From a virus, in UHGV virus genome UHGV-1370083: a stretch of DNA of 50,925 nt. One strand, 5' to 3'. Below, piece by piece: positions 5,629-50,925 of the stretch (its first letter is position 1; each line of letters begins with the position of its first letter). Under the pieces are notes generated by a model that was not told the DNA's origin, ran no database searches, and worked only from the letters and a program-made list of their open reading frames with translations. The translations under genes and the position numbers were made by a program.

Positions 5629-5640
5629 TTCTAACCTCCT

Positions 5641-14489: not shown

Positions 14490-15049
14490 ATAACCTCCTT
14501 AGTCCTCGAACTTATGATGATAGATGCTATCGTGTTTGGGTACTTCATGGTTCGGAGAAACCAAGCGATAGAACAAGGTAGCGGGGAACATAATAATTTT
14601 CTGGATAATTACAAAAATTTTCATACTAACCTCCGGGGAATTATTCCTATATTATAGTATATACAATATTTTTCAAAAAATTTTACAAAATTTTATTTAT
14701 TACAAGGAGGTGATATGACGCGGAGCACTGGAAAGTTAATATATTTCAAAAGGAATGAAAGTGCGAGATTTGCGTTTTAATGTGTAATTGATTTAGTCTT
14801 GAGAAATATAAGGGAGAAGGTATCGCGCGCACGTATTATATATTAGAATGCGCGTATGATAATTTTGAGTGGAGATGGGTGGAGGAGAAGGGTGAGGGAA
14901 TAGGAGGAGCTGAAAAGTATAAATTATTTACTATACCGCCTCTCGGGGACCGCGCCAATTCTTTATTTTTAATATATTTCAAAACCAATTTAATATGAAC
15001 AATCAAAACAAACAAAATCAAATCGGATTGTTCAAAAGGTAGGTATATC
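14490..15049. promoter_or_regulatory. 560-bp divergent control region between the leftward morphogenesis block and the rightward early block.
   Basis: No credible long ORF. It holds direct repeats of TTAATATATTTCAAAA (14736-14751 and 14969-14984). It holds a GC-clamped palindrome GCGCGCA-CGTATTATATATTAGAA-TGCGCG (14825-14855). A 21-codon micro-ORF with a perfect Shine-Dalgarno lies at 14715-14780. Confidence 0.5.
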
Positions 15050-16297: not shown

Positions 16298-16735
16298 CAG
16301 CTCAGCGTTTTGCAAGGTGTAGTGCGGCCGAAGGCTTCTCGATTATAATTTTTCGGAAGTCTTTTCGGGCATTACACAAAATTCAAAATTATTCTACTTT
16401 TTCGAAATTTTAATGACGAAAATTTTGTGAAAAGGGTTTTGAATTTGGGTTAAGGTTTACGGGTTTGGTTTTGCACCTGCAAATTTGAGAAAATTTTTCC
16501 GAAAAAATATAAGGGGGGGGGCCATTTTCCACATATTAAATAAAAATTATTATTCAGCCACTAACCCGGTAAAAATAATTATATATATACATACATTATA
16601 ATATAATAATCGGGGGGGGGCTATATATTTTTCGGAAAAAGATTTGAAAAATTTCAAGTGCAAAACCTAAACTCCAAACCCTTTTCGTCAACGTCTAAAA
16701 TAAATAAATAAACAATAAATCAAGGAGGCATTTTT
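16298..16735. promoter_or_regulatory. Structured non-coding region and candidate replication origin: inverted repeat, G9, AT-rich spacer, G9, inverted repeat, plus iterons.
   Basis: The left arm (about 16408-16512) and right arm (about 16621-16692) are imperfect reverse complements. G9 tracts lie at 16513-16521 and 16612-16620. A 90-bp spacer of more than 80% AT separates them. TTTTTCGGAA/TTCCGAAAAA occurs three times, at about 16348, 16494 and 16627. Confidence 0.4.
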
Positions 16736-17404
16736 ATGCACGACTATTGTAAAAACTCAGCTCACTCCAGCAACTTCAATCTTGCAGTCACTCTGACGAA
16801 AGATACTATCTTACAACAGCCAGACCACTCTTGCTTTGCTTTTCCGTCATACTGGACTCTCGACTGTTGCTTGAAACGGTTGACCCAGCTTATTGGCAAG
16901 CCGACCAGACAATACATTGCAGAGACTCATCGCAAAGAAAATGACTACGACAGTGAGGATGAGATTATTGCGGTGCCTTATAACACATACGACTTCATTG
17001 TCGCTACCGACAATATGTACTTCATTGTCAGAGATACACCGGATGACGCGTTCCATCACTCTTACAAGTTTGAGGTTCGGCACGGCGAGTATAAGCCGGA
17101 CCACTTGTATTGCTACACCTACAATCTTGTGCCGTTCACAACTAAAACCTTCAAGCTTACATATCGCAAGAATACTAAAATGTTCTACCTGTTCGAAGGT
17201 TCTACCGTTGTGTGTTGCAATAAGGACTACGACTGGATATGCGCCGTGGTTATTAACAAGCTTGTTGATAAGACTGACCCGCTCACTTACCGGCTCAAGC
17301 ATCGCATCAAGTTGTCAAAGGGTTATGTTGAGTGGTGCAAAGACAACGGCATGCCGCTCGTGACTGACGGTTATGAGCCTCGCGCGTACGTGACATTATT
17401 ATAA
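16736..17404 (+). CDS. Hypothetical protein (222 aa), Cys/Tyr-rich, of unknown function.
   Basis: CAAGGAGG before the ATG at 16736. Its GC content is visibly higher than the downstream modules. Confidence 0.5.
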   Translation: MHDYCKNSAHSSNFNLAVTLTKDTILQQPDHSCFAFPSYWTLDCCLKRLTQLIGKPTRQYIAETHRKENDYDSEDEIIAVPYNTYDFIVATDNMYFIVRDTPDDAFHHSYKFEVRHGEYKPDHLYCYTYNLVPFTTKTFKLTYRKNTKMFYLFEGSTVVCCNKDYDWICAVVINKLVDKTDPLTYRLKHRIKLSKGYVEWCKDNGMPLVTDGYEPRAYVTLL

Positions 17405-17502
17405 TATACGTGCGCACGGCGCGATAACACCACATTACAAAGATAGTTCATAATATTGCAGTACTGACATGCATAATCAGTCAGTGAATAATTTTTTAAA
17501 AA

Positions 17503-17525
17503 TCGTATATATTATATATGTACGA
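17503..17525. promoter_or_regulatory. 23-bp palindromic element TCGTATATATTATATATGTACGA, a candidate operator or phage-specific promoter.
   Basis: Arms TCGTATA and TGTACGA flank a TATTATATA centre. A near-identical copy sits at 26350-26372. It lies 65 nt upstream of the ATG at 17590. Confidence 0.45.
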
Positions 17526-17589
17526 CGAATTCGATATATCCCGTCGACTGACGGATATAAATAAATTTTAGCTCAGGAGGAACATAAAC

Positions 17590-19106: not shown

Positions 19107-19414
19107 AACTTATATTGATTAACGATGATGGGACCGAGAGCATTAACAAAGAAGTTAAATTTGTTAGCTGCAGTTTTGTAACTGATGAAAACACAAGCAT
19201 AATCAATTCTTGGAATTGTAATGCTTATGACCAGCTCAAAGGTTATATGACGGTATGCGAACAATTTAAGAAATGTGAGAATGCTATTGGCCTTATCAAA
19301 GAGCTCAAAGCATTAGGCGAATGGGAAGAAGTTAAAAAAGAGCTTGAAGATGCATGTTATGAGCACTTAAACAACGACGGAAAAGTGATAAGCTTTCCGG
19401 GGAGGTTAAATTGA
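19103..19414 (+). CDS. Hypothetical Cys-containing protein (103 aa).
   Basis: ACGGAGGATGAGGA before the ATG. ATGA overlap with the previous gene. Confidence 0.45.
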   Translation: MKLILINDDGTESINKEVKFVSCSFVTDENTSIINSWNCNAYDQLKGYMTVCEQFKKCENAIGLIKELKALGEWEEVKKELEDACYEHLNNDGKVISFPGRLN

Positions 19415-19851
19415 GAGTAGTAGACGTAAGACTTCCTCGCGAATATTTGCAAATACTTGAAACTTATGGAACGTTATCAGATATTGCAAATAAAGCATTG
19501 GAAGAAATAAGTAAAGGTAATTTACCAGAAATTGCAGATATGCCGGCGCTTGGGTATAATGACTCACATTTTGCAAAGAAACTTGTAAGAGTTGAAAATG
19601 AAGACTATGAGACGCTCGTTGCAACTTATGGGACACACAGTTCACGTATTTCGTTGCGCAGATTATTTGTATATCTTGTAGAAAGTGAAACAATACAAAA
19701 TCTTGGGTTTATCCCTAAGCAAGCAACAAAAGAATATTGTAAAACCCACGAATATTGTATGCGAGTTATAAAAAGATTATATCAGCTTGCACCGGAAAAG
19801 TATATTGCACCTATTACAGAGATAATAGAAAAACTTAATACTTTATCATAA
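19411..19851 (+). CDS. Hypothetical protein (146 aa) with a probable TTG start.
   Basis: GGGGAGGTTAAA lies directly before the TTG at 19411. The next in-frame ATG is 43 codons downstream. Confidence 0.4.
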   Translation: MRVVDVRLPREYLQILETYGTLSDIANKALEEISKGNLPEIADMPALGYNDSHFAKKLVRVENEDYETLVATYGTHSSRISLRRLFVYLVESETIQNLGFIPKQATKEYCKTHEYCMRVIKRLYQLAPEKYIAPITEIIEKLNTLS

Positions 19852-19862
19852 GGAGAAAAGCA

Positions 19863-20684
19863 ATGAAGAACGTACTGTCAAAATTTAAAGTACGCATCAA
19901 TCGTAACCTAACAGGCGACCAAATATGCGAAGCCTTAGGGCAATCACTTGTGAACGTAGATAATGTATATAGTTACATATTATACGCAGACTACGATAAA
20001 CAAGGCTTAGTCGGGTTTCAAGTAGAGTTTCTTGTAAGCCAGACTGAAAGTTATAACACTATTTCACAGGAAGAAGTCATTGCTAATGCGGCAGCACAGA
20101 TGCTTAAGCAATTACGCAGTGAACAGCAAAGATATGTGATAGGTTATAAACAACCACCGCTCGATAAATTGTTAGAACTCTATGAACCATTAGTCCAGAA
20201 TCTTGCAATGAAGCAGCAACAATATTGGCAGCAGATGGAGTTCGAAGACTTATGTCAAATGTGCAGACTTTGTATTTGTACATTATATCAGGCTGGTTAT
20301 TATATTCACAAAGCTCTTATACAAAAAGCATTCTCAAATGAGGTGTTACTTAAGATACGTAAAGATAGGTATCACGAGCAACCACTATCATTAAATCGTC
20401 GTGTAAAGTATGATAATGAGAAAGTAGAGTTAATGGACTTAATACCTGACAACTCTATGGTTGAGGAAATACAGGAGCAGCAAGATAATGAGGATGCGCT
20501 TCGAATATTACAAGAGAAGCGAGACCTTATTATTGCAGAAGTTGGGCAACGACAATATGACCAGCTTGTTCGAGCTTATACATTTGGCAATACAGATGGT
20601 ATGAGTCGGCGATTAGTAAATAAACTTAAAAATAAGTTTGCACAACTTGGAATTACAGAGAACACATTTCAGAGGTATTTTTAA
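19863..20684 (+). CDS. Hypothetical protein (273 aa), Gln-rich, with a possible C-terminal helix-turn-helix. Candidate transcription regulator or sigma-like factor; very tentative.
   Basis: TAAGGAGAAAAGCA before the ATG. The C-terminal segment RQYDQLVRAYTFGNTDGMSRRLVNKLKNKF is HTH-like by eye only. Confidence 0.4.
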   Translation: MKNVLSKFKVRINRNLTGDQICEALGQSLVNVDNVYSYILYADYDKQGLVGFQVEFLVSQTESYNTISQEEVIANAAAQMLKQLRSEQQRYVIGYKQPPLDKLLELYEPLVQNLAMKQQQYWQQMEFEDLCQMCRLCICTLYQAGYYIHKALIQKAFSNEVLLKIRKDRYHEQPLSLNRRVKYDNEKVELMDLIPDNSMVEEIQEQQDNEDALRILQEKRDLIIAEVGQRQYDQLVRAYTFGNTDGMSRRLVNKLKNKFAQLGITENTFQRYF

Positions 20685-22099: not shown

Positions 22100-22229
22100 A
22101 TGTTCAAACTGTAAATTTTGTAAACAGTGCACTGAGACTGAGAAACGTTTAAGTGGTAAAGGCGCATTTTGTTACGACTATGAAGAGAAGGAGACAAGCA
22201 ATGAAAATAAAGACAACGGACAATCTTAA
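22086..22229 (+). CDS. Small Cys-rich protein (about 47 aa; CSNCKFCKQC...C), a possible zinc finger.
   Basis: GTGAGGAGAGTAGCA before the ATG at 22086. The ORF-track ORF 22032..22229 is truncated to this RBS-supported start. Confidence 0.35.
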   Translation: MITHKCSNCKFCKQCTETEKRLSGKGAFCYDYEEKETSNENKDNGQS

Positions 22230-22413
22230 GCCTTGCCCATTTTGCGGTGGTCAAGCAGTAGTACAAGAGATGCGCTACAGTATGCTACAAAGCGAGAATT
22301 TTGTAAAATGCGTAAATTGTGGAGCAGAAAGTTCTCGATATTATGACGACGCGCACAGTGCTATAAACGCTTGGAATAGGAGGGTTGATAATGAAAGCAA
22401 CCATCAAAGATAA
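22201..22413 (+). CDS. Lar-like zinc-ribbon protein (about 70 aa), a candidate restriction-alleviation or anti-restriction protein.
   Basis: N-terminal LKPCPFCGG followed by CVNCG, the pattern of Lar-type restriction alleviation proteins. GAAGGAGACAAGCA before the ATG at 22201. Confidence 0.4.
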   Translation: MKIKTTDNLKPCPFCGGQAVVQEMRYSMLQSENFVKCVNCGAESSRYYDDAHSAINAWNRRVDNESNHQR

Positions 22414-22787: not shown

Positions 22788-23796
22788 TCTTAATTGTTTT
22801 GCAAGTTGTATGCAAAAATATAACCAAAATTATATCTTGCATAATCAGCCTGCAACTATCAGTCCACATCTTACCTTTGGTACAATGGCTCATGAAGTAT
22901 TATACAACGCAGGTAAGTTACGAGATGATAGTGACGATGGAGTAATCAATCCAGATGATTATTACAGAGTCATTCCGAGTGAAGTATTATATCCTGAATT
23001 AAAGTCAGCATTTAATATTAACTCGTGGGACCTGTACTTTAAAGCAGCTATCAAACAAGTTGTGCAGTACGAGAAGGAATGTTGCAAAGAATTAAGTGAC
23101 TATGACAAAGCATCAGGTATAGGCGATGGTTCTTATGAGATTGAACGAGAACTTAAGTTGCAGTTAACTGTGGACCAGCTTAAACAGCTTGGTGAGTATG
23201 GTATTGACCAACCTTTTGTAGGTATCATCGACTTGCTTATTCATAGTAAAACATCTGCAATTATCTTGGACTACAAATTTAGTTCAGCTCGTAAGAGTCA
23301 AGAGGACTTTGATAACAATAGTCAGCTTCCATTGTATGCATTGTTTGTGCATATATTGTATGACATTCCGCTTCAGAATATTCAGTATGGTTACATTGAT
23401 ATTCCAAAACAAATGTTTGAGATGCCTGCACTATTAAAAAATGGCACATTGTCTCGGTCAAAAGCTCAGAACTGTTCAGCAGAAATGTATAAAGCAGCTG
23501 TTGAAGCAGTGCATGGTGCTGACCCGTATTATAATTGTAATGCAGGTGGCTATTACGAAGAAGCTTATAACTCATTTGCTTTGAATAAAGCTGCATATTT
23601 GTCGAAACAGTATCTTGACTTAGAAATTTATGAGCATATTATAAGAGAGTTGTTTGATACAGCAAAGACAATTGATATGTTCAAAGCAAAGAATTTACCT
23701 TTCTTGAGAAAATTTGATAGCTACTCTTGCAAAGGTTGTGAATACAAAAATACTTGCAAACCTTGGTTAGCTCAGGTTTGGAATGAGGAGGTATAA
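22768..23796 (+). CDS. PD-(D/E)xK nuclease of the RecB/Cas4 type with a four-Cys cluster (342 aa).
   Basis: IGIIDLLIH...AIILDYKFS matches the RecB nuclease motifs (ID ... hhDYK). One N-terminal Cys (CFASC) plus C-terminal CKGCEYKNTC fit a Cas4-like Fe-S arrangement. TTGGAGGAAGTAAATA before the ATG. Confidence 0.6.
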   Translation: MSHSNSSLNCFASCMQKYNQNYILHNQPATISPHLTFGTMAHEVLYNAGKLRDDSDDGVINPDDYYRVIPSEVLYPELKSAFNINSWDLYFKAAIKQVVQYEKECCKELSDYDKASGIGDGSYEIERELKLQLTVDQLKQLGEYGIDQPFVGIIDLLIHSKTSAIILDYKFSSARKSQEDFDNNSQLPLYALFVHILYDIPLQNIQYGYIDIPKQMFEMPALLKNGTLSRSKAQNCSAEMYKAAVEAVHGADPYYNCNAGGYYEEAYNSFALNKAAYLSKQYLDLEIYEHIIRELFDTAKTIDMFKAKNLPFLRKFDSYSCKGCEYKNTCKPWLAQVWNEEV

Positions 23797-24026
23797 TGAA
23801 ACAGTTATTTAATTTTTACTTAGAAGACAGCGATAAGAAAGCAGCAATGGAAAAGCTTAAACGTTTAAAAGGTGATAATAGTAAAGGTCAGCTCGCAGCA
23901 TATTTAAGAGTTATGATTAAATTGTTTATTGCTACACCCGACGAAAAAGTAAATAAAGATATACTTGACGCAGTGGATGCAGAGTATGTATATAACACAT
24001 ATAAAAATAAAAGGAGTTACTTATGA
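23796..24026 (+). CDS. Hypothetical protein (76 aa).
   Basis: GAGGAGGTATA before the ATG. ATGA coupling with the upstream gene. Confidence 0.4.
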   Translation: MKQLFNFYLEDSDKKAAMEKLKRLKGDNSKGQLAAYLRVMIKLFIATPDEKVNKDILDAVDAEYVYNTYKNKRSYL

Positions 24027-26218: not shown

Positions 26219-26314
26219 ATTGATTTTAATATATAATAATCATATCGATTATATTTATAAGATATTTTATCAGCCGATATTATAATTGATTGATATTATA
26301 TATTAAAAATCAAT
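26219..26314. repeat. Inverted pair of the 19-nt motif ATTGATTTTAATATATAAT (26219-26237) and its complement (26295-26314), with a 57-bp AT-rich spacer.
   Basis: Read directly. The same motif pair recurs at 45062-45142 and 50705-50786, and once at 35256-35274. Confidence 0.8.
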
Positions 26315-26349
26315 GAGAATAATTTCAGAGTGAAATAATTTTAAAAAAT

Positions 26350-26372
26350 TCGTATATATTATATATAGACGA
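26350..26372. promoter_or_regulatory. 23-bp palindromic element TCGTATATATTATATATAGACGA, the second copy of the element at 17503.
   Basis: 19 of 23 positions are identical to the 17503-17525 copy. It lies 20 nt upstream of the ATG at 26392 and directly upstream of the RBS. Confidence 0.45.
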
Positions 26373-26391
26373 AAAATTAAGGAGGTACTTT

Positions 26392-30020: not shown

Positions 30021-31299
30021 GTATTTAAAAAACGAACGGCCGTATCAAGAGTACGGCTGTAACTTTTTATTAGAGCGTAAACATGCATGCTTGTTTTATA
30101 AACCCGGTAAAGGCAAAACTTATCCAGTAATTAAAGCGGTTAGAGAAATAGAAGCAGCAAAAAAGCGTGATATTAAAGTTCTTGTTTTATCGACCGCAGC
30201 AGCAATTAAAATGATGTGGCTTGTTGATATTGACCCTCAGAAAATTATGCCGAAACAAACTGATTATATGTCTTTCACAAAAGCAGTGCAAGATAAAGTC
30301 AAACCTGTACTTTTAAAAACTTTGTGGGACGTAATTATTATAGATGAGTGTCATCACATTAAAGCTCATAATACAAAAATCTCTAAACTTGTATATCAGC
30401 TTACAAAGAAGTGTGAATATGTATTTGGTTTGACAGGTACGCCTCGTGGTAATAGTGACGTTGATATTTATTGTCAGTTCCACAATATGAATGTTTCAGG
30501 TTGGGGTGATATTTCATATACGTTATTTGTAAATACTTGTTGTGACGTTGATACAAAATTTGTAAGAGGTATTGCAATTAAAACTCCTACTGCAATCAAT
30601 GAAAAGTACAGAGGCGGTTTTGAAAAGAATGTTGCAATGTATTCACAGCGCAAAGATTATGATGAGTCTGATAATATGCCTGAACTTAATATTAGTATTG
30701 TGAAAATTCCTTTTACGCCAAGTAAAGAATATTTACAAGTTGAGCAAGGTGTATTGCAAATGAGTGATTATGAAACCACTTTGAATAAGTTAACTGCTAT
30801 TTGTAAATTGCAGCAACTTGCAAATGGGTTTGTATATATCACCGATGAATATGATGAAGAAAAGAGAACTTTTAAACTTGATGGCAAGAACTTAAAGCAC
30901 GATTGGTTACAAGATAACTTGAAAGATAATTCTGTTATTGTATATCGGTATGCTGAAGATTATAACCAACTCTGTAGTCTTATGAATAAAATAAATAAAA
31001 CTTATACAAACAATGTTGGTGAGTTCAAAGCAGGTAAAGCTAGTATATTGTTATTACAATGTTCTCAGTCAGAGTCTTTTAACTTGCAGCAATGTGCAAA
31101 TCTTATTTTTTATACAATGGACTATTCGTTTATCAATTTTGACCAGATGCTTCACAGAGTATATCGTATGGGTCAAAAAGAACAAGTAAATATTACAGTT
31201 CTTATAAGCGATGGTAGTATTGAGAATAAGATTTGGAATGCAGTAGATAGAAAACAAACTTTATCACAGTTATTTTATGCGATTAAAGGAGAAGTATAA
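30007..31299 (+). CDS. SNF2-family (DExH) helicase (430 aa).
   Basis: Motif I KPGKGKTY, II IIIDECHH, III GLTGTP, VI HRVYRMGQ. AAGGTGGTAAAGCAAG before the ATG. Confidence 0.7.
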   Translation: MNYNEYLKNERPYQEYGCNFLLERKHACLFYKPGKGKTYPVIKAVREIEAAKKRDIKVLVLSTAAAIKMMWLVDIDPQKIMPKQTDYMSFTKAVQDKVKPVLLKTLWDVIIIDECHHIKAHNTKISKLVYQLTKKCEYVFGLTGTPRGNSDVDIYCQFHNMNVSGWGDISYTLFVNTCCDVDTKFVRGIAIKTPTAINEKYRGGFEKNVAMYSQRKDYDESDNMPELNISIVKIPFTPSKEYLQVEQGVLQMSDYETTLNKLTAICKLQQLANGFVYITDEYDEEKRTFKLDGKNLKHDWLQDNLKDNSVIVYRYAEDYNQLCSLMNKINKTYTNNVGEFKAGKASILLLQCSQSESFNLQQCANLIFYTMDYSFINFDQMLHRVYRMGQKEQVNITVLISDGSIENKIWNAVDRKQTLSQLFYAIKGEV

Positions 31300-33320
31300 T
31301 GGACGAAAATCTTGCAAGACTTAATAGAATTTATCCAGACAGTAAGTATGTACTTATTCCTAAGTATAATGCAGAACAATGGGCCGGCATACCTTATGAT
31401 AGTGGAAAAGATAATAAAGCTGCACTTAATAAATGGAAATCTAATCCACTTAGTTATGAGCAAGCTGAACAAAAAGCAGAGGAAGGCTATCGTATCGGCT
31501 GGGTTATTCCTAAAGGTTATGTCGTAGTTGACGTAGATAACGAAGATGACCCTATGTCTGCTGAAAAATTAGAGCAGCTTCTTAATAAATTTGAAGTTAA
31601 TTACTCTTACAATTATACAAGTCGTGGCACTCATTTTTTATTAAAAGATGAAAGTGAAACAATTAAAACAGATAGCCATTCTAAATGCGCACTTAATATT
31701 GTTATTGATACACGTGCAAATGAGAGTGGCTACATTATATTACCTTGTAACGACCCTCACAGAGCTTGGGGGCATTGGGGCGACAGTGTTGAAGATATAC
31801 CTTACTTTCTTAAACCATTGCTCAAAGATACTACACCAAGCTTTATTGGTATGGTCGATGGTGATGGCCGTAATGATGCACTTTGGAAATGGCGCAGCAG
31901 ATTGGAACAAGTACATAAGCTTACGCCACAAGAAATTGAAAAGAGTATTCGTATTATTAACGAAAACTTATTTCAAATTGCAATTCCAAATAATGAGTTG
32001 TTTAAGACAGTTCTTCGTACCAAAGAAAAGAAAGAAGATAAAGTTGAAAAGCAAAATATATTAAACAAATATGCAGATGACCTAATTAGTCAGTTTGATA
32101 TTATATCAAGAGGTTCTAACTTTTATAAATTCACTGGTATTTATTATGAGCCAATTTCCGATATTGAGCTTGAACAGCTTATTCATCAAACAATAAGTAC
32201 AAACTTAAGTCACGGACAACGAATTGAAATTCTTGAATTTGTTAAAGTTAAGACACAACAACCTGCAGAATTATTTGACAAAGAGTGGTACAAAATTGCT
32301 TGTAAAAATGGTATACTTAACTTTATAAGTGGTGAGCTCGAGACACCAAACAAAACGGAACTTAATACAATTTTTATTCCGTTTGAGTATGATAATGACC
32401 CACCTTATTCACCTCGCATTGACCAGTTTATGAAGGAAATCACTAATGGTGATATTACAAAGATAAACTTCTTGTATCAGGTTGCAGGTTATTGCTTACT
32501 TAAGAAAAATATGTTTGCAAAGTTTTTTATTTTCTTAGGTGAAGGCGGTACAGGTAAATCAACTTATATGAATCTACTTTGCAAAATGGTTGGTGAAAAG
32601 AACTGTGCACGAGTTGCATTATCCGACTTCGATAAAGATTATTATTTATCAGGTTTAATGTCTAAACTTGTAAATGTAGATGATGACGTTATGGACAACA
32701 AAGCGCTTGAAGGTGTAGGTAAGTTTAAGTCAATGATTTCAGGTGACCCTATTTCTGCAAGACAGATTTACAAAGACGTTGTAACATTCACACCATATTG
32801 TACTTGTATCTTTTCTTGTAATAAACTTCCAAAGATTATGGATAAAACGACTGGCCTGTATCGTCGTCTTGTTATTGTAGAACTTAATAACAAGGTTAAA
32901 ACACCAGACCCTTTATTTATGGCAAAGGTTACAGATGAAGACATGCAGTACTTTTTATTTAAAGCAGTTGAAGGTATCAAGCAAGCAATCGAAGAAGGTC
33001 ATTTTGCAATCAATGAAACAGAAGCCGAATTACTTAGACGTTTCAAACGTAGACAAAGTGCATTGAGTGAATGGCTTTATGAAAACAATATTTGTCTTTG
33101 TGACTTAATCGGTAATAAAGTACTTCCTTTATATTCTCAGTTTAGAGATTGGTGCAACACAAGCGGGTATACAAAAATACCTGCGGCTTATTCATTTAAG
33201 GAAGATATTTGTGCAATGTATGGTATCGAACTTGATTTAGTAAAGTTAAATAATGGTGGTTTAGGTGGTCAATGTTTCTCAAAGCGTGGTGAATATGACC
33301 CGAACTATAAACCGTTCTAA
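31299..33320 (+). CDS. Primase-helicase (673 aa): N-terminal AEP/PrimPol-like domain fused to a D5/SF3-type helicase.
   Basis: VVVDVDNEDD (AEP hhDhD motif), a central D5_N-like region, and Walker A FLGEGGTGKST. AAAGGAGAAGTATA before the ATG. ATGG overlap with the upstream stop. Confidence 0.65.
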   Translation: MDENLARLNRIYPDSKYVLIPKYNAEQWAGIPYDSGKDNKAALNKWKSNPLSYEQAEQKAEEGYRIGWVIPKGYVVVDVDNEDDPMSAEKLEQLLNKFEVNYSYNYTSRGTHFLLKDESETIKTDSHSKCALNIVIDTRANESGYIILPCNDPHRAWGHWGDSVEDIPYFLKPLLKDTTPSFIGMVDGDGRNDALWKWRSRLEQVHKLTPQEIEKSIRIINENLFQIAIPNNELFKTVLRTKEKKEDKVEKQNILNKYADDLISQFDIISRGSNFYKFTGIYYEPISDIELEQLIHQTISTNLSHGQRIEILEFVKVKTQQPAELFDKEWYKIACKNGILNFISGELETPNKTELNTIFIPFEYDNDPPYSPRIDQFMKEITNGDITKINFLYQVAGYCLLKKNMFAKFFIFLGEGGTGKSTYMNLLCKMVGEKNCARVALSDFDKDYYLSGLMSKLVNVDDDVMDNKALEGVGKFKSMISGDPISARQIYKDVVTFTPYCTCIFSCNKLPKIMDKTTGLYRRLVIVELNNKVKTPDPLFMAKVTDEDMQYFLFKAVEGIKQAIEEGHFAINETEAELLRRFKRRQSALSEWLYENNICLCDLIGNKVLPLYSQFRDWCNTSGYTKIPAAYSFKEDICAMYGIELDLVKLNNGGLGGQCFSKRGEYDPNYKPF

Positions 33321-35246: not shown

Positions 35247-35279
35247 CGAATATTGATTGATTTTAATATATAATATTCG
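35247..35279. repeat. Hairpin CGAATATT-(17 nt)-AATATTCG whose loop carries a single copy of ATTGATTTTAATATATAAT (35256-35274).
   Basis: Read directly. It lies 7 nt after the polB stop and may act as a weak terminator and/or a binding site. Confidence 0.5.
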
Positions 35280-35296
35280 CAAATCTTAATCTTCCT

Positions 35297-35305
35297 TGAT
35301 ATAAT
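35297..35305 (+). promoter_or_regulatory. Extended -10 promoter element TGATATAAT (TGnTATAAT) within TTGATATAATATATAG.
   Basis: A perfect extended -10, 50 nt upstream of the ATG at 35356. The same 16-mer occurs at 45099-45114. Confidence 0.4.
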
Positions 35306-35355
35306 ATATAGGCCCAAAAGATTACACATTAAAAATTTTAGGAGGTAAAAACAAA

Positions 35356-35595
35356 ATGACAGTATTTACTGAAACATATATTCCGTATGAATTTAATAAT
35401 AAGATGGACTGTTATAAATATGTTGTTAATCGCGCACTTAACATACAAAAATCATTACGGTTTATAGAAAAAGATACAGAGCACCTTACTGTTAGATGCC
35501 CTGTATCAGCTGACTATTTAGATATTATTGGTGAACCAGAAGAAATAGAGTGGTTACATATGATGCTTAAAAATCGTCATTGGTATAAACCTTAA
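35356..35595 (+). CDS. Hypothetical protein (79 aa).
   Basis: TAGGAGGTAAAAACAAA before the ATG. Its stop overlaps the stop of the convergent giant gene. Confidence 0.45.
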   Translation: MTVFTETYIPYEFNNKMDCYKYVVNRALNIQKSLRFIEKDTEHLTVRCPVSADYLDIIGEPEEIEWLHMMLKNRHWYKP

Positions 35596-38500
35596 TAGAA
35601 ACCTTTCTTACTCTTTGTTCCGATATACACATTTTTAATACCTAATTTTTTAAGAACTTTATATTCTTCCTCAGTTGTATAATATTTATAACCATTGGAA
35701 GTATATACATAAATCTTAGCATATGAAGCGTTATCTGACATTAAACGTTGGATAGCGCTTTTCTTTTGCTTTTGCGTCATTTTGTTATAAACAAGTTCTA
35801 CATAAGTTCCATCCTCCTTCTTTACTTTATATTTCTTTTTACTTGCAAACAATTCTGCAAGAGAGTCTTTGTTTAATTCGCCGTACTTCTTATTAAGTTT
35901 AGCAGTATCTTTTGAGTCAAGCTTCTTGTCTTCGTAATTACCAGTCAAGTAGCTCTTATTAACGTCCTGCGCTAAAGCTTCTTTCTCAATATCGGTCACT
36001 TTGTAAGGGTTAATATCAATAGGACTATTAGCATTGATAAGTTTCACAAGATGAGGTAAATAGTATTTGCTCTGTACTTTACCCGTATAAATATCAATCT
36101 TCTTAGGCAGTGCATACGCGAAGCCCGGAATAGCTTGAACCATAGCACGTTGCATAAAGTTCAATGCTCCGTTCTTACTATATTGCGGTGCGAATGAATA
36201 CAAGTTTCTAGTGAATGCTTTCCAGAAATTAGGTATGAATGACAACATTGCATTCTCAGTAGTATTAACAAGATAATCTGCAAAGCTGGTAGAATAAGTA
36301 ATATTGCTATACAAATCATTAAATACAAAATCATCAAACAAACCGCTTGTAGTAGCTTTCATAACTTCCCAGAATGATTTGTTATCATCACCAAAGATAC
36401 TTGACATTGTAATACCCATCAAAATACCTTGCGTACCAAAGATGCCGCTTATATCAACATAGAAGTTAGTACCAATACGAAGCTTAGGCTTATCATCTTC
36501 GTCGTCAATAGCTGCAAGGCCAATTGCACCAAGCAAAAGACCAATCAATAAACCAGCACTTCCTATAATACCCTTACCAATTTGTTGTTTAGCAAAGTAT
36601 TCTGCGAACCGAGGACTAACAGAGCTTTGACCTTTACTGCTTGCTTCAGTCCGTTTTCTTTCCCATCTTTCAATCGTATTTTCAAGTTTGGCATAATTGA
36701 TTATTCCAAGTGCAAGTCCAGCAGGAGTATAGTTGAGACCTTCGAGGAACCAGTTAACACCAGCCGAGCCAAAAGGAAGTATTTGTTTGAAAGCAAAATA
36801 ACCAGCCGCGCCGAGTCTATTTCGAATAGCATTTTCAATACTGTTCACGAAATTACGTCTGTGCATATACTTGTAAGCAGCAGCAGCATAAGCTTCAGCA
36901 AGAGTATCAAGAACTTGACTACTATAACCTTTACTTAAATCTACTTTATCTTCTACAAGCATTTTACCAAATAAACGTTTTGTCTCTTTCTTTATCCAAG
37001 GGTCATCTGACAACCAACGGAACGTGAAGTCAGAGACTTTGTTCATTGTTTCCATTACAGCTTTAGCAGCTTTATTATTAACATTCTTTGTATCAAACAT
37101 TTGGTCGCCGAACATTTTAATAATGATTGCTTTAGCCATAGTGTTAGCAGCACTCTGTATACCTTGGTCTTTTTTAACGGTAGCTTTATCTTCAAAATAC
37201 TTAGACAGGCCATCAGACAAAGTATCATAGAAAGAATACTTCTCAATAACTTTACCATTAGCATCGGTTTTTGTATACAAAGTTTCGTTGAACATTTTAT
37301 CAACAAAAGCTGCGGTAGTATCATCAACTTGCGTACCACTGATTTTATATTGTTTGTATTCAAGCTGTTTAATACCAGGTAATTTACCTTTGAATTCTTT
37401 AGGAATTTCAGTTGCATTAGGGTTAGCTTTACGCCAGCTTTCGAACTTAGCAAGTATAGCTTCTTTCTTTGTACGAGACTTAGAAATTGCAAGGTCACCA
37501 AGCTTCTCAGTAATCTTACCAAACTTATCTACAACAATATTAGAAGTTGCATTTCGTATCGCAGTACCAGGTGCAGATAACATTGCCCAGCGCTCAATCT
37601 TCCAAAGGGTATCCCAAACTTTATCACCTTTCTTGTGTTCAACTTGTTTCTCTTTAACTTCATTCTGTATTTTAGCAAGAGCTTCTTCAATAGCAGTAAT
37701 CTTTTCTTTGTTAAGTTGTTCAGTAGTCTTACCTTCAACACCACTTGTAGGTTTCTTAAGTGCAGTAACAAGTTCAGCTACACTCTTTTCATCTACGTCA
37801 ATACCGTAATATTGCTGTAATGCAGAAGTAATTCGCTTGGCAGGGTTAACAAGACCAATCACTTTACTCCAGACAGACATTATAGTGGCGGCAGTACTTA
37901 CAGGTGTATTCATTAAGGCATTAAGCTGTTCTACAGTATCAGAATCAAATTGATAAATGCCATTGTTCATTAAGTCTGTAAAATTAGCAAGAACCATAAG
38001 TCTGACAGACTCATAAACACGAATATCATTACGAGTTACGTCACCCTCGAGCGCAAGACTGTGGCTATAGAAATCAATAATCTCTGCTGCTTCTTCTTGA
38101 GTTATTGTATCAAGTTTACCCGAATTTTTATCAAAGAATTCTTTAACACTTACCTCAATATTCGGGTCATTGACATCAGCAATGTATTTTACAGTAGACT
38201 CGCTTGTATCGCTGAATTGCGTTTTGAGAAGCTCTTCAAGTTTAGCAGGCATATTCTTATTACTATAAATATCAAAGTGAGTACCATTAGGTAAATTTAT
38301 TTCTGCAAGTTGTTTATACTTAGCAACTTCACCTTTCAAGTTTTTCACCTTTTCTTGTAACCGAGCTTTGTCACCCTTCAACTTTTCATTCTGAGCTTTT
38401 CTACGGTCAGCAGTATCAAAGATTGCTTTAGCAGTAGCATTATTCCAATAGCCTAATCTTGCTTTACGGCTAATCTCTTTAAGAGTTTCTTCAGCTTTAT

Positions 38501-41500
38501 AGTATTCAGAAATATCTTTACCTTGCCACCACTTATTGATTTGACCATCTTTAAAATATTCAGGATAGTCCATTTCAGCTTTTGCTTTTGCTTTAGGCGA
38601 TAAATAACTCATAATTTTATTACCAATACGGTTAATATTATCACTTACTGTCTTTTTAGGGCGCTTAGGAAATAATCTTTCATCCTTCTTGCTTGCTTCG
38701 ACTACTGCTCTAAGCATCTTATTACTGCCTGTTACATTTTCATATTGAGCAGCAAAATAACGTTCTTCAAGCTCGTCTCTGCTAAGTGCGTTTACAAGAC
38801 TAGGTATCTCAGCAATTTTAGCTTCAGCATCTTCTTGACTTATTACACCTTGCTCGATTTGGTTGTAAACTTGTCTCGCAAGAAAGAGTTTAAGTTTACT
38901 ATTCATTGTTTCTACAGGAACGTCACCGATAATATCATTGAAAGCATCAGTTGAATTAGGGTCGCTGATTAAATCAATTAACTCACGACTTGTATCATCA
39001 CCTTTACTACCACCAACTTGACGGTTAAGACTACTTTCTTTTCTGATTTCATCAGGAGCTTTATAACCACTGAGTATCAACCAATAAGCACGACCAGCAG
39101 CACGACCGCCAGACTCGATACTACCATCAAAGTCATTAGCCCATACGATACGAGCCGCACCGGTTTTAGCTTCAGTAAGTTCTTCCATCGCTTTGCTATA
39201 TGCAAGAGCATGCTTAAGATAAGCTTTGCCAAGAGGCGAGCTAGCACCTTTCTCAGTTTTAAGCTCTTCAATAATAGAGTCGAACTTTTCTTGGCTGATT
39301 TTCTTTTCAGTCATTTCAGTACGGCCTGTATCTCTGAGTGCACACCACAATGCGTAATATTGCATAGACTTTATAGTAGCCAGGTCATTAAGCTGCTTAA
39401 AAGATTTAATCACTGGATTATGGAAGTATATCTTATTAAACAATTTCCAGGTATAATCATTTACTTTATTTGCATCAATAGTACGCAACCATCGCATATT
39501 TTTTTGGTAAGTAAGAGTACCTTGTTGACTACCTCCAATATATTTCCACAAAGACTTATTCAAGAATGCAGGATTTGCAGCTTTAACAAAATTTTGTGTT
39601 TCAGGGTCCATTTGGATAGGCCTATATTTTCTAATAAAGTATTCAAGGTTTGTACCTCTGGCCTCTTTATTAGAAACAGTGCGAGGTGCAACTGGCTGGA
39701 CTTCTGCATCAGTTACGACATTCTTTTTATGTTTTGTAATATATGCTTCTTTCTTAAGACGTTTTTGTTCCGCCCTCAGTTCTTTAAGATAAGCTTCTTT
39801 TTCTTCTTTGCTCATTCCTTCAAGCTGAGCTCTTTCATCGGCGTTAAGACCATCGTCGGTTTCACTAAGAGACAAAATATGAGAATTACCATTTTGGTCA
39901 AAATTATATTTATCAAGCAGACTACCCATTTTAGATTCAAATGTTGTAATAAGTTTATCACTATCTTTTAAACTAAATAAGGTATCACCATTAGCATCGT
40001 TAATTATAACAGTACCAATAATATTTTTTTCAAATAATTTTATGGTAGTGATATATAAATTAACTAATGTTGAACGATTAGTAGCAGCATTTACATTTAT
40101 TGTTAAAGTATTATTAGAAATATCACCAACTAAAGTATTATCAAATAATTGTACTTGCTGAGATTTAGTAAGATTATTAGCTGTGCTATATAATTTACTA
40201 AAATTATATAGAGCAGCTTCTGGTATTGCATATTTACTAAAGTAAGTATCACCATTTGGAAATATACATACTGATGTAGCAGACTTGCTCGGCTGCTGTA
40301 CAAGACTAAGATACTTCTTATTGTTACGAAGAATTTGGTTAGTAAAATCATTTGTAATTTTACTATCAATGAACTTATAATTATCGTTAGTCATATTATT
40401 GTACGTATATTCACTAGGGTCTAATAAAATATTATTATCTTTATCAAAACCTAATATTTTAACAGTTTTAGATTTTGAAGCAATATCAGTAGGTACTAAA
40501 ATTTCCGCCATAACGTCAGCTACATAACCAACTAAATCTTTAGGCTTAACAATACCTATTGTTAAATACATATTTTCAAGTAACGTTTCTTTTCCAGTAA
40601 TACCTTTATTTAAAAATGCATGCGTTGCTCTAGTATACTGCTCTCTTGTATTATACATAGTTGAGCCATAAGAACGCAACTTAGTATCACCAAATTGAGC
40701 AGATACAAAATCATCAGGATAGTAGACAGAATTTGTTTGTACTCTAAAAAATGGAATATCAGTATTTAAAAATTCATCATAAGGAATATTATTTCCAGCA
40801 TCTTGCCATAATTGTTTCAACATAATATCTCTAATTTCAGGGTCTTGAGCAAATTTAACTAACTCTTTTTTACCTTCGGGTGTACCAGCCTCTACCCATT
40901 CTCGAACTACTGAATTATCTTGTACTTTATTATCAAACTCTTCTGCAATCGCACGTCTTTCTTCTGTTGTAGCTTTGTTGTTTGGTCCATAAATTATATC
41001 TTTATATAAATAAGTTTCATAGTTAGTATCATCAAGAAGGTCGTGAACAAGCTTAATTCTACCAAACTTTTCGTATACAGGATAAGCGTATGACAATAAT
41101 GCATCATCAGTTTTAGTGCCTTTGGTACCATTGGTTTTATTCCGCAACGGTTCTGCGCCAGTAACTTCGAAGGTACCAAACGGAGTATCGAGATAAGTTT
41201 TATTACCGACGTCTCTTCTAAACATAGGTACGCGCAAAGGTGCAGCATAGTAGCTTTGAGGTCCTTGCCAACCACGTGCATCTATTTCACCAGTAACACA
41301 AGTATAAATTAACCGACTAAGCATATCAAAAGCAGCCGCATCAGTTAAACCTTTAACGTTAAGTTCAGGAAAATATTCGCGCGCTGCCTCAAGTATTTTA
41401 TAGCTAGAAGCAAATGGCAAAGTTGTAAAATCTATGTATGCAAAACCGGCACTAAAATTATTTTGATGTTGTATAGCATGTTCAAATTCATGTAATACTT

Positions 41501-44987: not shown

Positions 44988-45061
44988 ACATATACTCCTT
45001 TACTGCTCTTCGCAGTTATTTGAAATATCATTATTATATATTTTACAAACCTGCTTTATTA

Positions 45062-45142
45062 GATTTTAATATATAATAGGAATGCAATTTATATTCAATT
45101 GATATAATATATAGACTAAATTGATTATATATTAAAATCAAT
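45062..45142. repeat. Inverted pair of GATTTTAATATATAAT (45062-45077) and ATTATATATTAAAATCAAT (45124-45142), enclosing a copy of TTGATATAATATATAG (45099-45114).
   Basis: Read directly. The right arm overlaps the stop codon of the 498-aa gene. Confidence 0.8.
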
Positions 45143-50704: not shown

Positions 50705-50786
50705 GATTTTTAATATATAATATTTGAATATCTTGTTATTCCTTAATAAAATATAAAGGCCATATATAATTATATATTAAAAATCA
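50705..50786. repeat. Inverted pair of GATTTTTAATATATAAT (50705-50721) and ATTATATATTAAAAATCA (50769-50786), upstream of the leftward tail operon.
   Basis: Read directly. The arm centres are about 64 bp apart, as in the 45062-45142 copy. Confidence 0.8.
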
Positions 50787-50811
50787 TATAATCAACTGAT
50801 ATAAAAAGAAA

Positions 50812-50850
50812 GACCGGCCGACTGTTATGCCGGGCCGGCCTCTCTTTTTT
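50812..50850. terminator. Intrinsic terminator that is probably bidirectional: a GC-rich hairpin (CCGGCC ... GGCCGG) flanked by a T7 run on the plus strand and a T-rich run on the minus strand.
   Basis: AAAAAGAAAGACCGGCCGACTGTTATGCCGGGCCGGCCTCTCTTTTTTT. It lies just downstream of a minus-strand ORF 3-prime end at 50872. Confidence 0.65.
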
Positions 50851-50871
50851 TGCGAAGTACTGTGAGCTAAG

Positions 50872-50925
50872 TTATGCCTGAGCTTTCGTCGTAACCGTAC
50901 CAACAACAGATACAGGTTTAACAAC
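50872..50925 (-). CDS. 3-prime end (last 17 codons, ...VVKPVSVVGTVTTKAQA) of a minus-strand gene that enters from beyond the right edge.
   Basis: The frame is open to the window end. The TAA at 50872-50874 is followed by the terminator. The fragment is too short to evaluate. Confidence 0.2.
   Translation of the reverse strand, partial: VVKPVSVVGTVTTKAQA

What the first reader, a model, noticed from the sequence alone, without database searches (positions are those of the whole stretch)
26219..26314. A 17-19-nt AT-rich motif (ATTGATTTTAATATATAAT) present as inverted pairs at three transcription-unit boundaries and as a single copy at a fourth
Three loci carry the motif as a pair in inverted orientation: 26219-26237 with 26295-26314, 45062-45077 with 45124-45142, and 50705-50721 with 50769-50786. 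Arm centres are about 76, 64 and 64 bp apart, which is 6-7 helical turns and puts both sites on the same DNA face. A fourth locus (35256-35274) has a single copy inside a CGAATATT/AATATTCG hairpin. The spacers between arms are not conserved, so this is not a MITE-like element. That pattern fits paired binding sites for a dimeric or looping DNA-binding protein. All copies sit at operon boundaries in both transcription orientations: before the nucleotide-metabolism/replication operon, after polB, between the 498-aa and giant genes, and upstream of the tail operon. A motif 19 nt long repeated at four loci is far beyond chance in a 51-kb window. It suggests a phage-specific regulatory system, such as a transcription factor, an anti-terminator, or promoters for a phage-encoded factor.
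Basis: seen in the sequence. Interest (0 to 1): 0.7.

Follow-up and report, generated by a model that had tools for sequence, protein, structure and literature searches.

The report
Phased twin-box regulatory cassette of a gut phage
The AT-rich motif is real: it is the arm of a 74-85 bp mirror-symmetric DNA cassette that an uncultured family of gut phages keeps almost letter-perfect in front of every non-early gene block, most likely as paired docking sites for a phage-specific transcription protein.

Summary
The conserved unit is a 14-16 nt box, (A)TTTTAATATATAAT(A). It always occurs as an inverted pair, including at the "single-copy" locus, where a degenerate partner sits at 35321-35334. A fifth, degenerate pair lies at 14775-14848.

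In relatives whose PolB is only 54-62% identical, the boxes stay 96-98% identical. Spacers are about 50% identical and flanks are at random level. Across 82 distinct family cassettes the inner spacing is 36, 46-47 or 56-58 nt and never in between, so it changes in steps of one helical turn. None of the 13 box substitutions is compensated in the partner box. This points to recognition as DNA by a protein, not to an RNA hairpin.

Every cassette lies between the stop codon of one gene and the start of a non-early unit: the replication block, the small gene after polB, the giant gene, and both structural blocks.

Best reading, with moderate confidence: these are phased paired operator/promoter boxes of a phage-specific transcription switch. 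Which protein binds them, and in which direction they act, remains unproven.

The parts
26224..26237 (+). Cassette M1, left box TTTTAATATATAAT. The whole cassette spans 26219-26314 with a 57-nt spacer. It lies between the stop of the HD-domain gene (26207) and the first gene of the nucleotide-metabolism/replication block (ATG 26392).
26295..26308 (-). Cassette M1, right box (reads TTTTAATATATAAT on the minus strand).
35261..35274 (+). Cassette M4, left box. It lies 20 nt after the polB stop (35240).
35321..35334 (-). Cassette M4, degenerate right box TTTTAATGTGTAAT at the canonical 46-nt spacing. It lies 21 nt from the ATG of the 79-aa gene (35356).
   Evidence: (D16)
45064..45077 (+). Cassette M2, box proximal to the giant gene (ATG 44987, minus strand).
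45124..45137 (-). Cassette M2, distal box. The TGA stop of the 498-aa gene (45138-45140) abuts it. The spacer is 46 nt.
50708..50721 (+). Cassette M3, box proximal to the 239-aa gene (ATG 50652, minus strand).
50769..50782 (-). Cassette M3, distal box. The spacer is 47 nt.
14775..14788 (+). Cassette M5 (degenerate), box TTTTAATGTGTAAT. It lies in the divergent region between the structural block (minus strand, first ATG about 14626) and the early block (plus strand).
14835..14848 (-). Cassette M5, box TTCTAATATATAAT at 46-nt spacing. It lies in the loop of a GC-clamped hairpin.
35296..35299 (+). Central TTGA of M4, 21 nt from each box. The same element is at 45099-45102 in M2. In this window it forms part of TTGATATAATATATAG, which resembles an extended -10 element.
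14967..14983 (+). Single half-box TTTTAATATATTTCAAA upstream of the first early gene (ATG 15050). It is also conserved in L139 and L085.
45033..45041 (-). Proximal -10-like element ATATATAAT between M2 and the giant gene. It is followed by a conserved leader hairpin CTGCGAAGAGCAG (45003-45015) and a Shine-Dalgarno sequence. It is conserved in all relatives, at a variable distance (3-30 nt) from the cassette.
26350..26372 (+). Proximal AT-alternating element TCGTATATATTATATATAGACGA between M1 and ATG 26392. A second copy is at 17487-17531. Counterparts sit at the same place in relatives.
   Evidence: (D15)
19863..20684 (+). Early gene for a 273-aa divergent sigma-factor-like protein. It has sigma2 and sigma4 domains plus an extra N-terminal alpha/beta domain. 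It is the candidate trans-acting partner.
23796..24026 (+). 76-aa basic protein with a ribbon-helix-helix-like pattern. It is conserved in all box-bearing lineages examined and was not detected in outgroup L135. It is an unverified candidate box binder.
50803..50852 (.). G+C-rich hairpin flanked by an A-run and a T-run, resembling a bidirectional intrinsic terminator. It ends the structural block that wraps round the contig ends, about 25 nt before M3.

Best explanation
The motif is the arm of a dyad-symmetric DNA cassette: box (A)TTTTAATATATAAT(A), a 46-nt (or 36- or 57-nt) AT-rich spacer whose centre in 46-nt cassettes is usually a kinkable TTGA/TCAA or TCGA, then the inverted box. The cassette is a clade-specific transcription-control element placed at the head of every non-early transcription unit of a roughly 51-kb lytic-looking podophage of gut Clostridia.

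Proposed mechanism: the two boxes are read as double-stranded DNA by a symmetric, oligomeric phage-specific protein. That protein occupies both boxes cooperatively on one face of the helix and bends the short spacer. The complex acts as a gate between units. It insulates the downstream unit from read-through, and it controls the -10-like promoter elements that lie in and just downstream of the boxes. Those promoters are probably served by host RNA polymerase carrying the phage's own sigma factor (ORF 19863-20684).

Shown: the anatomy, the conservation, the helical quantisation, the lack of compensatory change, the positions relative to genes, and the sigma-like fold.

Inferred: that a protein bridges the boxes, which protein it is, and whether the effect is repression, insulation or activation.
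For: 1. Selection acts on sequence. In orthologous cassettes from lineages whose PolB is 54-62% identical, the boxes are 96-98% identical, the spacers 45-54% and the flanks 34-38%; the random expectation is 35%.
2. Spacing is quantised. The 82 distinct family cassettes have spacers of 36 (1), 46 (50), 47 (15), 56 (4), 57 (10) or 58 (2) nt. None has 37-45 or 48-55 nt. One further pair, with a 45-nt spacer, is an unrelated giant-virus contig. Orthologous sites switch between the 46 and 56/57 classes. This is the signature of two sites that must keep one rotational register.
3. Box changes are not compensated. Of 882 box pair positions in 63 cassettes, 13 are mismatched and 0 are compensated. Complementarity stops sharply at the box edges.
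4. The dyad centre of 46-nt cassettes is TCAA/TTGA or TCGA in 35 of 50 cases.
5. Each cassette has a gene start on exactly one side, 10-95 nt away, and the 3' end of a gene or a terminator on the other side. The five cassettes together precede all non-early units.
6. Outgroups with the same gene order have these genes abutting, with no cassette and no box.
7. Exact pairs occur almost only in this 50-55 kb family: 84 stretches in viral contigs, plus phage-like contigs binned with Clostridia MAGs.
9. One lineage (L141) carries a compact perfect palindrome, TTTTAATATATTAAAA, made of two overlapping half-boxes. This is what an operator for a symmetric dimer looks like.
Against: - No DNA-binding regulator could be identified. 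Pfam and PHROGs find no HTH or RHH domain in any early protein.
- The 76-aa RHH-like candidate failed every formal test: AF2 pLDDT 57, hhalign probability below 1% against Arc and Mnt, and no PDB hit.
- A contiguous, asymmetric, invariant box of 16 bp is long for a single regulator subunit.
- The distance from the cassette to the proximal -10-like element varies from 3 to 30 nt. This argues against a fixed-geometry activator or an occluding repressor of that promoter.
- A 46-bp loop is very tight.
- There are no transcript or binding data.
Confidence: 0.4

Rival explanations
1. Each box is itself a single-element (-10-type) promoter for RNA polymerase carrying the phage sigma factor, analogous to the tAATGTAtA promoters of phiEco32 gp36. 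A cassette would then be a pair of face-to-face promoters, or a bidirectional unit. One promoter drives the downstream unit. The other gives antisense or interfering transcription into the preceding unit.
For: - The phage encodes a divergent sigma factor in its early block.
- phiEco32 gp36 promoters are a single 9-nt element, tAATGTAtA, 6-8 nt upstream of the start site, and they sit before middle and late genes (PMC8948821).
- The box core TAATATATA and the variant TAATGTGTA each differ from that element by 1 nt.
- The boxes end in a perfect TATAAT.
- A shortened box, ATATATAATA, oriented toward the giant gene is conserved together with its leader in all relatives.
- The number and placement of the cassettes match the non-early units.
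- No -35 element is conserved upstream of the boxes.
Against: - It does not explain the obligatory inverted partner or the helical-turn quantisation of the spacing.
- Half of the boxes point away from any gene.
- In the L141 lineage the boxes read TATCAT, TATCAA or TATCTA. The box that faces the gene there has lost the T at -7.
- This sigma has a sigma4 domain, so a bipartite promoter would be expected. No consistent -35/-10 pair could be found that also holds in the 56-57-nt cassettes.
Confidence: 0.3
2. The cassette acts as RNA. Read-through transcripts fold the two boxes into a 14-20 bp A-U stem that serves as an RNase III processing site, a 3' stabiliser or a factor-dependent terminator between units.
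For: - Most cassettes fold better than shuffled controls (-14 to -24 kcal/mol, z from -2.8 to -5.1).
- The position, after a stop codon and before the next unit's promoter-like element, is where T7-type RNase III sites and terminators sit (established knowledge).
Against: - There are 0 compensated changes among 13 box substitutions.
- Window cassette M4 does not fold (z = 0), yet it is kept in three genomes.
- The boxes are conserved as sequence, not merely as complementarity.
- The 10-11-nt quantisation of the loop length has no RNA rationale.
- The stem has no G+C and there is no U-tract.
- M3 already has a classical terminator beside it.
- There is no Rfam match.
Confidence: 0.1
3. The cassettes are loading sites or origins for the phage's PrimPol-D5/SF3 primase-helicase (31299-33320). 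They would be AT-rich dyad-symmetric elements that position two helicase rings head to head.
For: - The architecture is dyad-symmetric and AT-rich, with invariant inverted sites, which recalls the core origins of SF3-helicase viruses (established knowledge).
- One cassette lies directly after the primase-polB genes.
Against: - Four to six copies per 51-kb genome.
- Each copy is tied to a gene start.
- The outgroups have the same primase-helicase but no boxes.
- A separate 438-nt non-coding region with a 53-nt inverted repeat (16454-16680) is a better origin candidate.
Confidence: 0.05
4. The cassettes are miniature inverted-repeat mobile elements (Correia- or MITE-like) that spread through the genome and are otherwise neutral.
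For: - They are short elements (74-85 bp) with terminal inverted repeats and partly related interiors (D3).
- In outgroups the same gene junctions lack them, so they look like insertions.
Against: - The same four or five syntenic junctions are occupied throughout a family that has diverged to 54-62% PolB identity.
- The boxes remain near-invariant while the flanks are randomised.
- There is no consistent target-site duplication: 9 of 63 share a 4-nt flank against 2.5 expected, and 54 of 63 do not.
- No transposase gene was found.
- The boxes are never found inside genes.
Confidence: 0.05

Closest known systems
Cooperative or looping operator pairs separated by integral helical turns (lambda CI on operators 5-6 turns apart; LacI, GalR and AraC loops)
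   Same: - Identical sites occur in pairs.
- Spacing is allowed only in steps of about 10.5 bp (36, 46-47 or 56-58 nt).
- The DNA between the sites is flexible and AT-rich with a kinkable centre.
- The sites lie at promoters.
   Different: - No cognate repressor has been identified.
- The boxes are 16-bp asymmetric sequences in inverted orientation, not palindromic operators.
- There are five such pairs per genome, one at the head of each non-early unit.
- The phage shows no lysogeny genes.
Single-element promoters of phage-encoded sigma factors (phiEco32 gp36: tAATGTAtA; T4 gp55: TATAAATA)
   Same: - The phage encodes its own divergent sigma factor.
- A short, highly conserved AT-rich element with no -35 lies before middle and late units.
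- The core differs from the gp36 element by one base.
   Different: - Here the element is always an inverted pair with a fixed phase.
- Half of the copies face away from genes.
- This sigma has a sigma4 domain and an extra N-terminal domain.
- No start sites are known.
Stoperators of Cluster A mycobacteriophages (L5, Bxb1)
   Same: - A 13-14 bp asymmetric site is repeated in short intergenic gaps across the genome, between transcription units.
- It acts, or is proposed to act, on transcription passing through.
   Different: - Stoperators are single sites in one orientation relative to transcription, number 24-36 per genome, and are bound by the immunity repressor of a temperate phage.
- Here there are 5 inverted, phased pairs in a phage without recognisable repressor or integrase.
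phi29 p4 binding sites at the A2c/A2b/A3 early-late switch
   Same: - The host is a Firmicute and the phage is a PolB podophage.
- There are inverted-repeat, A/T-tract-containing sites.
- DNA bending by a small phage protein switches early transcription to late.
   Different: - p4 half-sites are 6 bp, separated by 15 bp, and clustered at one locus.
- No p4 or p6 homologue was detected here.
- The cassettes are dispersed.
T7-type RNase III processing hairpins; Correia/MITE elements
   Same: - They are intergenic inverted repeats between genes.
- They are repeated within one genome.
   Different: - There is no compensatory evolution.
- The sequence is invariant.
- The loop length shows helical quantisation.
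- The positions are fixed and syntenic.

Membership tests
Looping/cooperative operator pair | Two or more copies of the same recognition sequence at one control region | tested here: met
   There are five inverted pairs in the window and 82 distinct pairs in the family.
Looping/cooperative operator pair | Function or occurrence restricted to spacings that differ by whole helical turns | tested here: met
   Spacers are 36, 46-47 or 56-58 nt only. None is 37-45 or 48-55 nt.
Looping/cooperative operator pair | A cognate oligomeric DNA-binding protein | tested here: inconclusive
   No HTH or RHH domain was found by Pfam or PHROGs. The 76-aa RHH-like candidate is unsupported.
Looping/cooperative operator pair | Binding and loop formation demonstrated | not testable with these tools
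   This needs EMSA, footprinting or spacer-insertion experiments.
Phage-sigma single-element promoter (phiEco32 gp36 type) | The phage encodes a sigma-family protein | tested here: met
Phage-sigma single-element promoter (phiEco32 gp36 type) | A conserved element lies 6-8 nt upstream of mapped transcription starts | not testable with these tools
   No transcript data are available. The consensus comes from PMC8948821.
Phage-sigma single-element promoter (phiEco32 gp36 type) | Elements are single and oriented toward the middle or late genes they serve | tested here: not met
   The elements are always inverted pairs. 6 of 12 core copies face away from any gene.
Canonical sigma-70/sigma-A promoter | A -35 TTGACA-like hexamer 16-18 nt upstream of the -10 hexamer | tested here: not met
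   Nothing is conserved 17 nt upstream of the box TATAAT. The central TTGA-18-TATTAT geometry exists only in 46-nt cassettes and often points away from the gene.
RNase III site / structured RNA element | Pairing is maintained by compensatory substitutions | tested here: not met
   0 compensated changes among 13 substitutions in 63 cassettes.
RNase III site / structured RNA element | A stable fold in the transcribed strand at every copy | tested here: not met
   z is -2.8 to -5.1 for five of the six cassettes folded, but 0.0 for window M4. There is no Rfam hit.
Intrinsic terminator | A G+C-rich stem followed by a U-tract | tested here: not met
   The boxes contain no G or C. A true terminator lies next to M3.
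MITE / Correia-like element | Terminal inverted repeats with a target-site duplication | tested here: not met
   Inverted repeats are present, but there is no consistent target duplication.
MITE / Correia-like element | Variable insertion sites and decay of copies | tested here: not met
   The cassettes occupy the same syntenic junctions across the family. The boxes are 96-98% identical while the flanks are at random level.
Stoperator system | Single asymmetric sites in one orientation relative to transcription, bound by an immunity repressor | tested here: not met
   The sites are inverted pairs. No repressor or integrase was detected.

The most novel reading that the evidence does not exclude
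The cassette is a new promoter architecture. Under this reading, two identical boxes held face to face in a fixed helical register are both read by RNA polymerase carrying the phage's unusual sigma factor (sigma2 plus sigma4 plus an extra N-terminal alpha/beta domain that could dimerise or bind DNA). Each boundary would then be a symmetric twin promoter that starts the next unit and fires antisense into the previous one, switching the temporal class in a single step.
Probability: 0.15. Interest if true: 0.75.

Novelty: new variant of a known kind. Interest (0 to 1): 0.55.

Why it matters
This gives a concrete, testable handle on gene regulation in an uncultured family of gut Clostridia podophages. 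Nearly all of their proteins are unannotated.

- There is a defined 16-bp box.
- There is a strict spacing rule that predicts the outcome of +5 versus +10 bp insertions.
- There is a candidate sigma factor that can be expressed and tested in vitro.

If the sigma-box pairing is confirmed, it would be a compact orthogonal transcription module for low-G+C Gram-positive hosts. It would also be a second example, after phiEco32, of a phage sigma that reads a single AT-rich element. If a separate bridging protein is found instead, the family would show dispersed, phase-locked operator pairs used to partition a lytic phage genome into temporal units.

Tried and rejected
- Megablast of 20 kb against 50,697 phage records gave no hit. 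The closest cultured PolB relatives are Bacillus and Enterococcus phages at about 30% identity.
- A full-text search for the motif found nothing relevant.
- An Rfam scan of the whole window found nothing.
- The giant 3131-aa protein was checked as a possible virion RNA polymerase. It has no Pfam, PHROG or PDB-sequence hit. Across distant homologues only an HExxH motif and a glycine-rich hydrophobic C-terminus are invariant, with no polymerase-like acidic motif. I did not pursue it.
- I tried to read the central TTGA as a -35 element (TTGAnn-18-TATTAT) or as an ECF-type -10 element. The geometry fails in the 56-57-nt cassettes, and the direction is inconsistent between cassette types.
- I tried to use box orientation to infer promoter direction. 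It is uninformative, because every cassette has one box facing each way.
- The small genes just downstream of cassettes (84 aa and 79 aa) were considered as autoregulators. They are unrelated to each other and acidic, and they are also present in outgroups that lack the box.
- The RHH candidate (76 aa) gave a low-confidence structure and insignificant hhalign scores against Arc and Mnt.
- Homologues of the Spo0A_C and HTH_38 proteins seen in relative L140 are absent from the window.
- I looked for transcript-like contig ends. Two metagenomic contigs break inside or next to M1, but they are DNA assemblies, so they say nothing about RNA ends.
- A search for an alternative repeated motif in the outgroups found nothing convincing.

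Full report
**Observation**

- The 19-mer with up to 3 mismatches has 6 hits in the window against 0.19 expected.
- A seventh copy at 26295-26311 differs by one inserted T.
- The 12-mer TTAATATATAAT has 7 exact copies.
- The 9-mer core TAATATATA has 12 copies against 1.9 expected, and all 12 lie in the few kilobases of non-coding DNA.

**What the unit really is**

Repeat finding and alignment show that the copies are the arms of a longer cassette. Comparison with relatives refines this. The cassette consists of a box (A)TTTTAATATATAAT(A), a spacer, and the same box inverted.

The "single" copy after polB has a degenerate partner, ATTACACATTAAAA, at 35321-35334, exactly 46 nt away. A fifth, degenerate cassette lies at 14775-14848, between the divergent structural and early blocks. 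Both degenerate boxes carry the same variant, TTTTAATGTGTAAT.

Inner spacings in the window are 57 nt (M1), 46 (M2), 47 (M3), 46 (M4) and 46 (M5). The spacers are not unrelated. They share 63-83% identity over 54 nt (D3). In M2 and M4 a TTGA sits exactly 21 nt from each box.

**Genome context**

The window is a complete, circularly permuted genome of about 51 kb. A 407-aa ORF runs across the junction of the contig ends.

Identified genes include:
- terminase, a portal-sized gene and a collagen-repeat protein;
- dUTPase, ThyX, a kinase, an AAA_24 ATPase and an SNF2 helicase;
- a PrimPol-D5 primase-helicase, PolB, a PD-(D/E)XK nuclease and an ATP-dependent ligase;
- a 3131-aa protein with no database match.

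There is no nucleotide match to any deposited phage. The nearest cultured PolB relatives are Bacillus and Enterococcus phages at about 30% identity. Strong AGGAGG ribosome sites, and binning of related contigs into Clostridia MAGs, point to a Firmicute host.

**Comparative evidence**

PolB-based retrieval gave 14 loci from 50-55 kb contigs of uncultured viruses. In relatives whose PolB is only 54-62% identical, the 14-nt box is letter-perfect at the same gene junctions.

A logo built from 81 boxes shows 16 consecutive near-invariant positions and nothing conserved where a -35 hexamer would lie. In orthologous cassettes from divergent lineages the identities are:
- boxes: 96-98%;
- spacers: 45-54%;
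- flanks: 34-38%, against a random expectation of 35%.

A pattern scan for exact pairs found 84 stretches in viral contigs. Nearly all belong to this family, with 4-6 cassettes per genome. In prokaryotic genomes the only hits were phage-like contigs binned into MAGs.

More distant relatives that share the giant protein at 21-27% identity have the same gene order, but the genes abut and there is no box at all. The cassette is therefore an innovation of one clade that has been held under strong constraint since it arose.

**Spacing rule**

Among the 83 distinct exact-box pairs in all sequences held, 82 belong to the family. Their spacer lengths are 36 (1), 46 (50), 47 (15), 56 (4), 57 (10) and 58 (2) nt. 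The remaining pair has a 45-nt spacer and is an unrelated giant-virus contig. No family cassette has 37-45 or 48-55 nt.

The same orthologous junction can carry 46 nt in one lineage and 56/57 nt in another. The spacing therefore changes only in steps of one helical turn.

With these spacings the inner TATAAT halves lie about 4, 5 or 6 turns apart. Keeping one rotational register is the classical signature of two DNA sites contacted together by protein, as in the lambda repressor and lac/gal/ara looping work (established knowledge). It has no rationale for an RNA loop.

In the 46-nt class the dyad centre is TCAA/TTGA or TCGA in 35 of 50 cases. This places a flexible pyrimidine-purine step at the apex.

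**DNA or RNA**

Transcripts across most cassettes would fold into long A-U hairpins (z from -2.8 to -5.1). Window M4 would not (z = 0).

Across 63 cassettes of the 46-nt class, 13 box positions are substituted and none is compensated in the partner. Complementarity falls to background one base outside the boxes. Rfam finds nothing. Selection therefore acts on the sequence of each box and not on pairing.

**Relation to genes**

Every cassette has a gene start on exactly one side, 10-95 nt from the outer edge of a box. On the other side is the stop codon of the upstream gene or, for M3, a classical terminator. The five cassettes precede:
- the structural block that starts at about 14626;
- the nucleotide-metabolism/replication block (26392);
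- the small gene after polB (35356);
- the giant gene (44987);
- the second structural block (50652).

These are all the non-early units.

In three cassette types a further, separately conserved -10-like element lies between the cassette and the start codon. Before the giant gene it is ATATATAAT, followed by a conserved leader hairpin and a Shine-Dalgarno sequence. Its distance from the cassette varies from 3 to 30 nt. In the fourth type the box abuts the Shine-Dalgarno sequence.

The asymmetric part of the spacer (TTGAnTAAT...) points toward the gene only in that fourth type. I could not derive a consistent -35/-10 promoter from the cassette.

One lineage (L141) has boxes ending in TATCAT, TATCAA or TATCTA, so the truly shared core is TTTTAATATAT. 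That lineage also has a compact perfect palindrome, TTTTAATATATTAAAA, next to a ribosome site. A single half-box, TTTTAATATATTTCAAA, is conserved upstream of the first early gene.

**Candidate trans factors**

By eye it shows sigma region 2 and region 4 patterns.

The protein has an extra N-terminal alpha/beta domain. It is conserved in all box-bearing lineages. A 25%-identical homologue sits at the same position in an outgroup that lacks the box.

Published work shows that the phiEco32 sigma gp36 reads a single element, tAATGTAtA, 6-8 nt upstream of the start site, and that this element lies before middle and late genes (PMC8948821). The box core TAATATATA differs from it by one base.

A 76-aa basic protein (23796-24026) has a ribbon-helix-helix-like pattern. 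It is conserved in box-bearing lineages and was not detected in the outgroup. Its model has low confidence, and comparisons with Arc and Mnt are insignificant. It is only a lead.

**Interpretation**

What is shown: a clade-specific, dyad-symmetric cassette whose 16-bp boxes are selected as sequence, kept in one helical register, and placed at the head of each non-early unit, in a phage that encodes its own sigma factor.

What I infer (confidence about 0.4): the boxes are paired docking sites for a symmetric phage-specific protein complex that bridges them and bends the spacer. The complex gates transcription at unit boundaries, and sigma-dependent promoters lie in or beside the boxes.

The main rival (about 0.3) is that each box is itself a gp36-type promoter for the phage sigma. 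That would explain the TATAAT, the lack of a -35 element and the placement. It would not explain the obligatory inverted partner, the phase rule, or the boxes that face away from genes.

The RNA-hairpin reading (about 0.1), the origin reading (about 0.05) and the MITE reading (about 0.05) each fail at least one direct test.

**Comparison and novelty**

The cassette works most like looping or cooperative operator pairs, and it resembles single-element phage-sigma promoters in sequence. It also shares the idea of dispersed intergenic sites with mycobacteriophage stoperators. It meets the defining features of none of these completely (see the membership table).

I rate it a new variant of a known kind: a phage-specific cis-regulatory signal with an unusual, phase-locked twin-box architecture.

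**Limits**

There are no transcript or binding data, and the host is uncultured. The sigma assignment rests on a predicted structure. The counts of distinct cassettes include orthologues, so they are not independent events, although the 46-to-56/57 switch has occurred at the same junction in several lineages.

Noticed in passing
window 16298-16735 (inverted-repeat arms 16454-16506 / 16628-16680): A 438-nt non-coding region holds a 53-nt inverted repeat (75% complementary, arms 121 nt apart). The arms flank two G9 runs and an alternating AT core. L085 (5130-6400) and L139/L141 have analogous long non-coding regions with poly-G or poly-C runs. This could be the replication origin or an early control region.
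   Followed up: partly
window 14826-14860 and 17380-17423: G+C-clamped hairpins (GCGCGCA...TGCGCG and GCGTACGT...ACGTGCGC) whose loops are box-like AT sequence. One of them encloses the right box of cassette M5. Function unknown.
   Followed up: no
window 17487-17531 and 26334-26378: A second repeated element, AATAATTTTwAAAAAT(T)CGTATATATTATATATrkACGA (84% identical copies), lies upstream of two plus-strand genes. Relatives have counterparts (GAATATATTATAAT) at the same place, and outgroup L135 has one too. It is probably another promoter class.
   Followed up: partly
window 44988-45060, minus strand: The giant gene has a leader conserved in relatives whose giant proteins are only about 37% identical. 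It consists of ATATATAAT, about 20 nt, the hairpin CTGCGAAGAGCAG, then AAGGAGTAT and the ATG.
   Followed up: partly
window 35592-44987, minus strand (3131 aa): The giant protein has no database match. Across homologues down to 21% identity it keeps an HExxH motif (residues 1166-1170) and a glycine-rich hydrophobic C-terminal region (about 2790-2870, weakly similar to V-ATPase c subunits). This suggests an injected multidomain protein with a zincin-like domain rather than an RNA polymerase.
   Followed up: partly
window 8299-8424 (inside the 883-aa gene 6152-8803, minus strand): A tandem repeat with a 9-nt period encodes collagen-like G-X-Y triplets (Pfam Collagen hit). This is likely a fibre or decoration protein.
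   Followed up: no
window ends (1-1170 and 50875-50925): A 407-aa minus-strand ORF is continuous across the junction of the window ends. The contig is therefore a complete circular or circularly permuted genome.
   Followed up: yes
window 19411-19851: The 146-aa gene directly upstream of the sigma-like gene is conserved next to it in L139, L140, L141 and L085. It may be a sigma partner, such as an anti-sigma or co-factor.
   Followed up: no
window 14900-14985; L085 about 3230-3300; L141 about 5620-5690: A conserved early-region element: ACTATA(TA)TACCG, then about 28 nt of G+C-rich sequence, then TTTTAATATATTTCAAA. It lies upstream of the first early gene in several divergent lineages.
   Followed up: partly
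L228 and L229 (metagenomic contigs of near-identical strains): Two independent assemblies break inside or immediately after cassette M1. This is consistent with the AT-rich inverted repeat causing coverage or assembly drop-outs.
   Followed up: partly
window 22153-22413: An 86-aa zinc-ribbon protein matches Lar restriction-alleviation proteins (Pfam PF14354, E = 7e-17). It is an anti-restriction gene in the early block.
   Followed up: no
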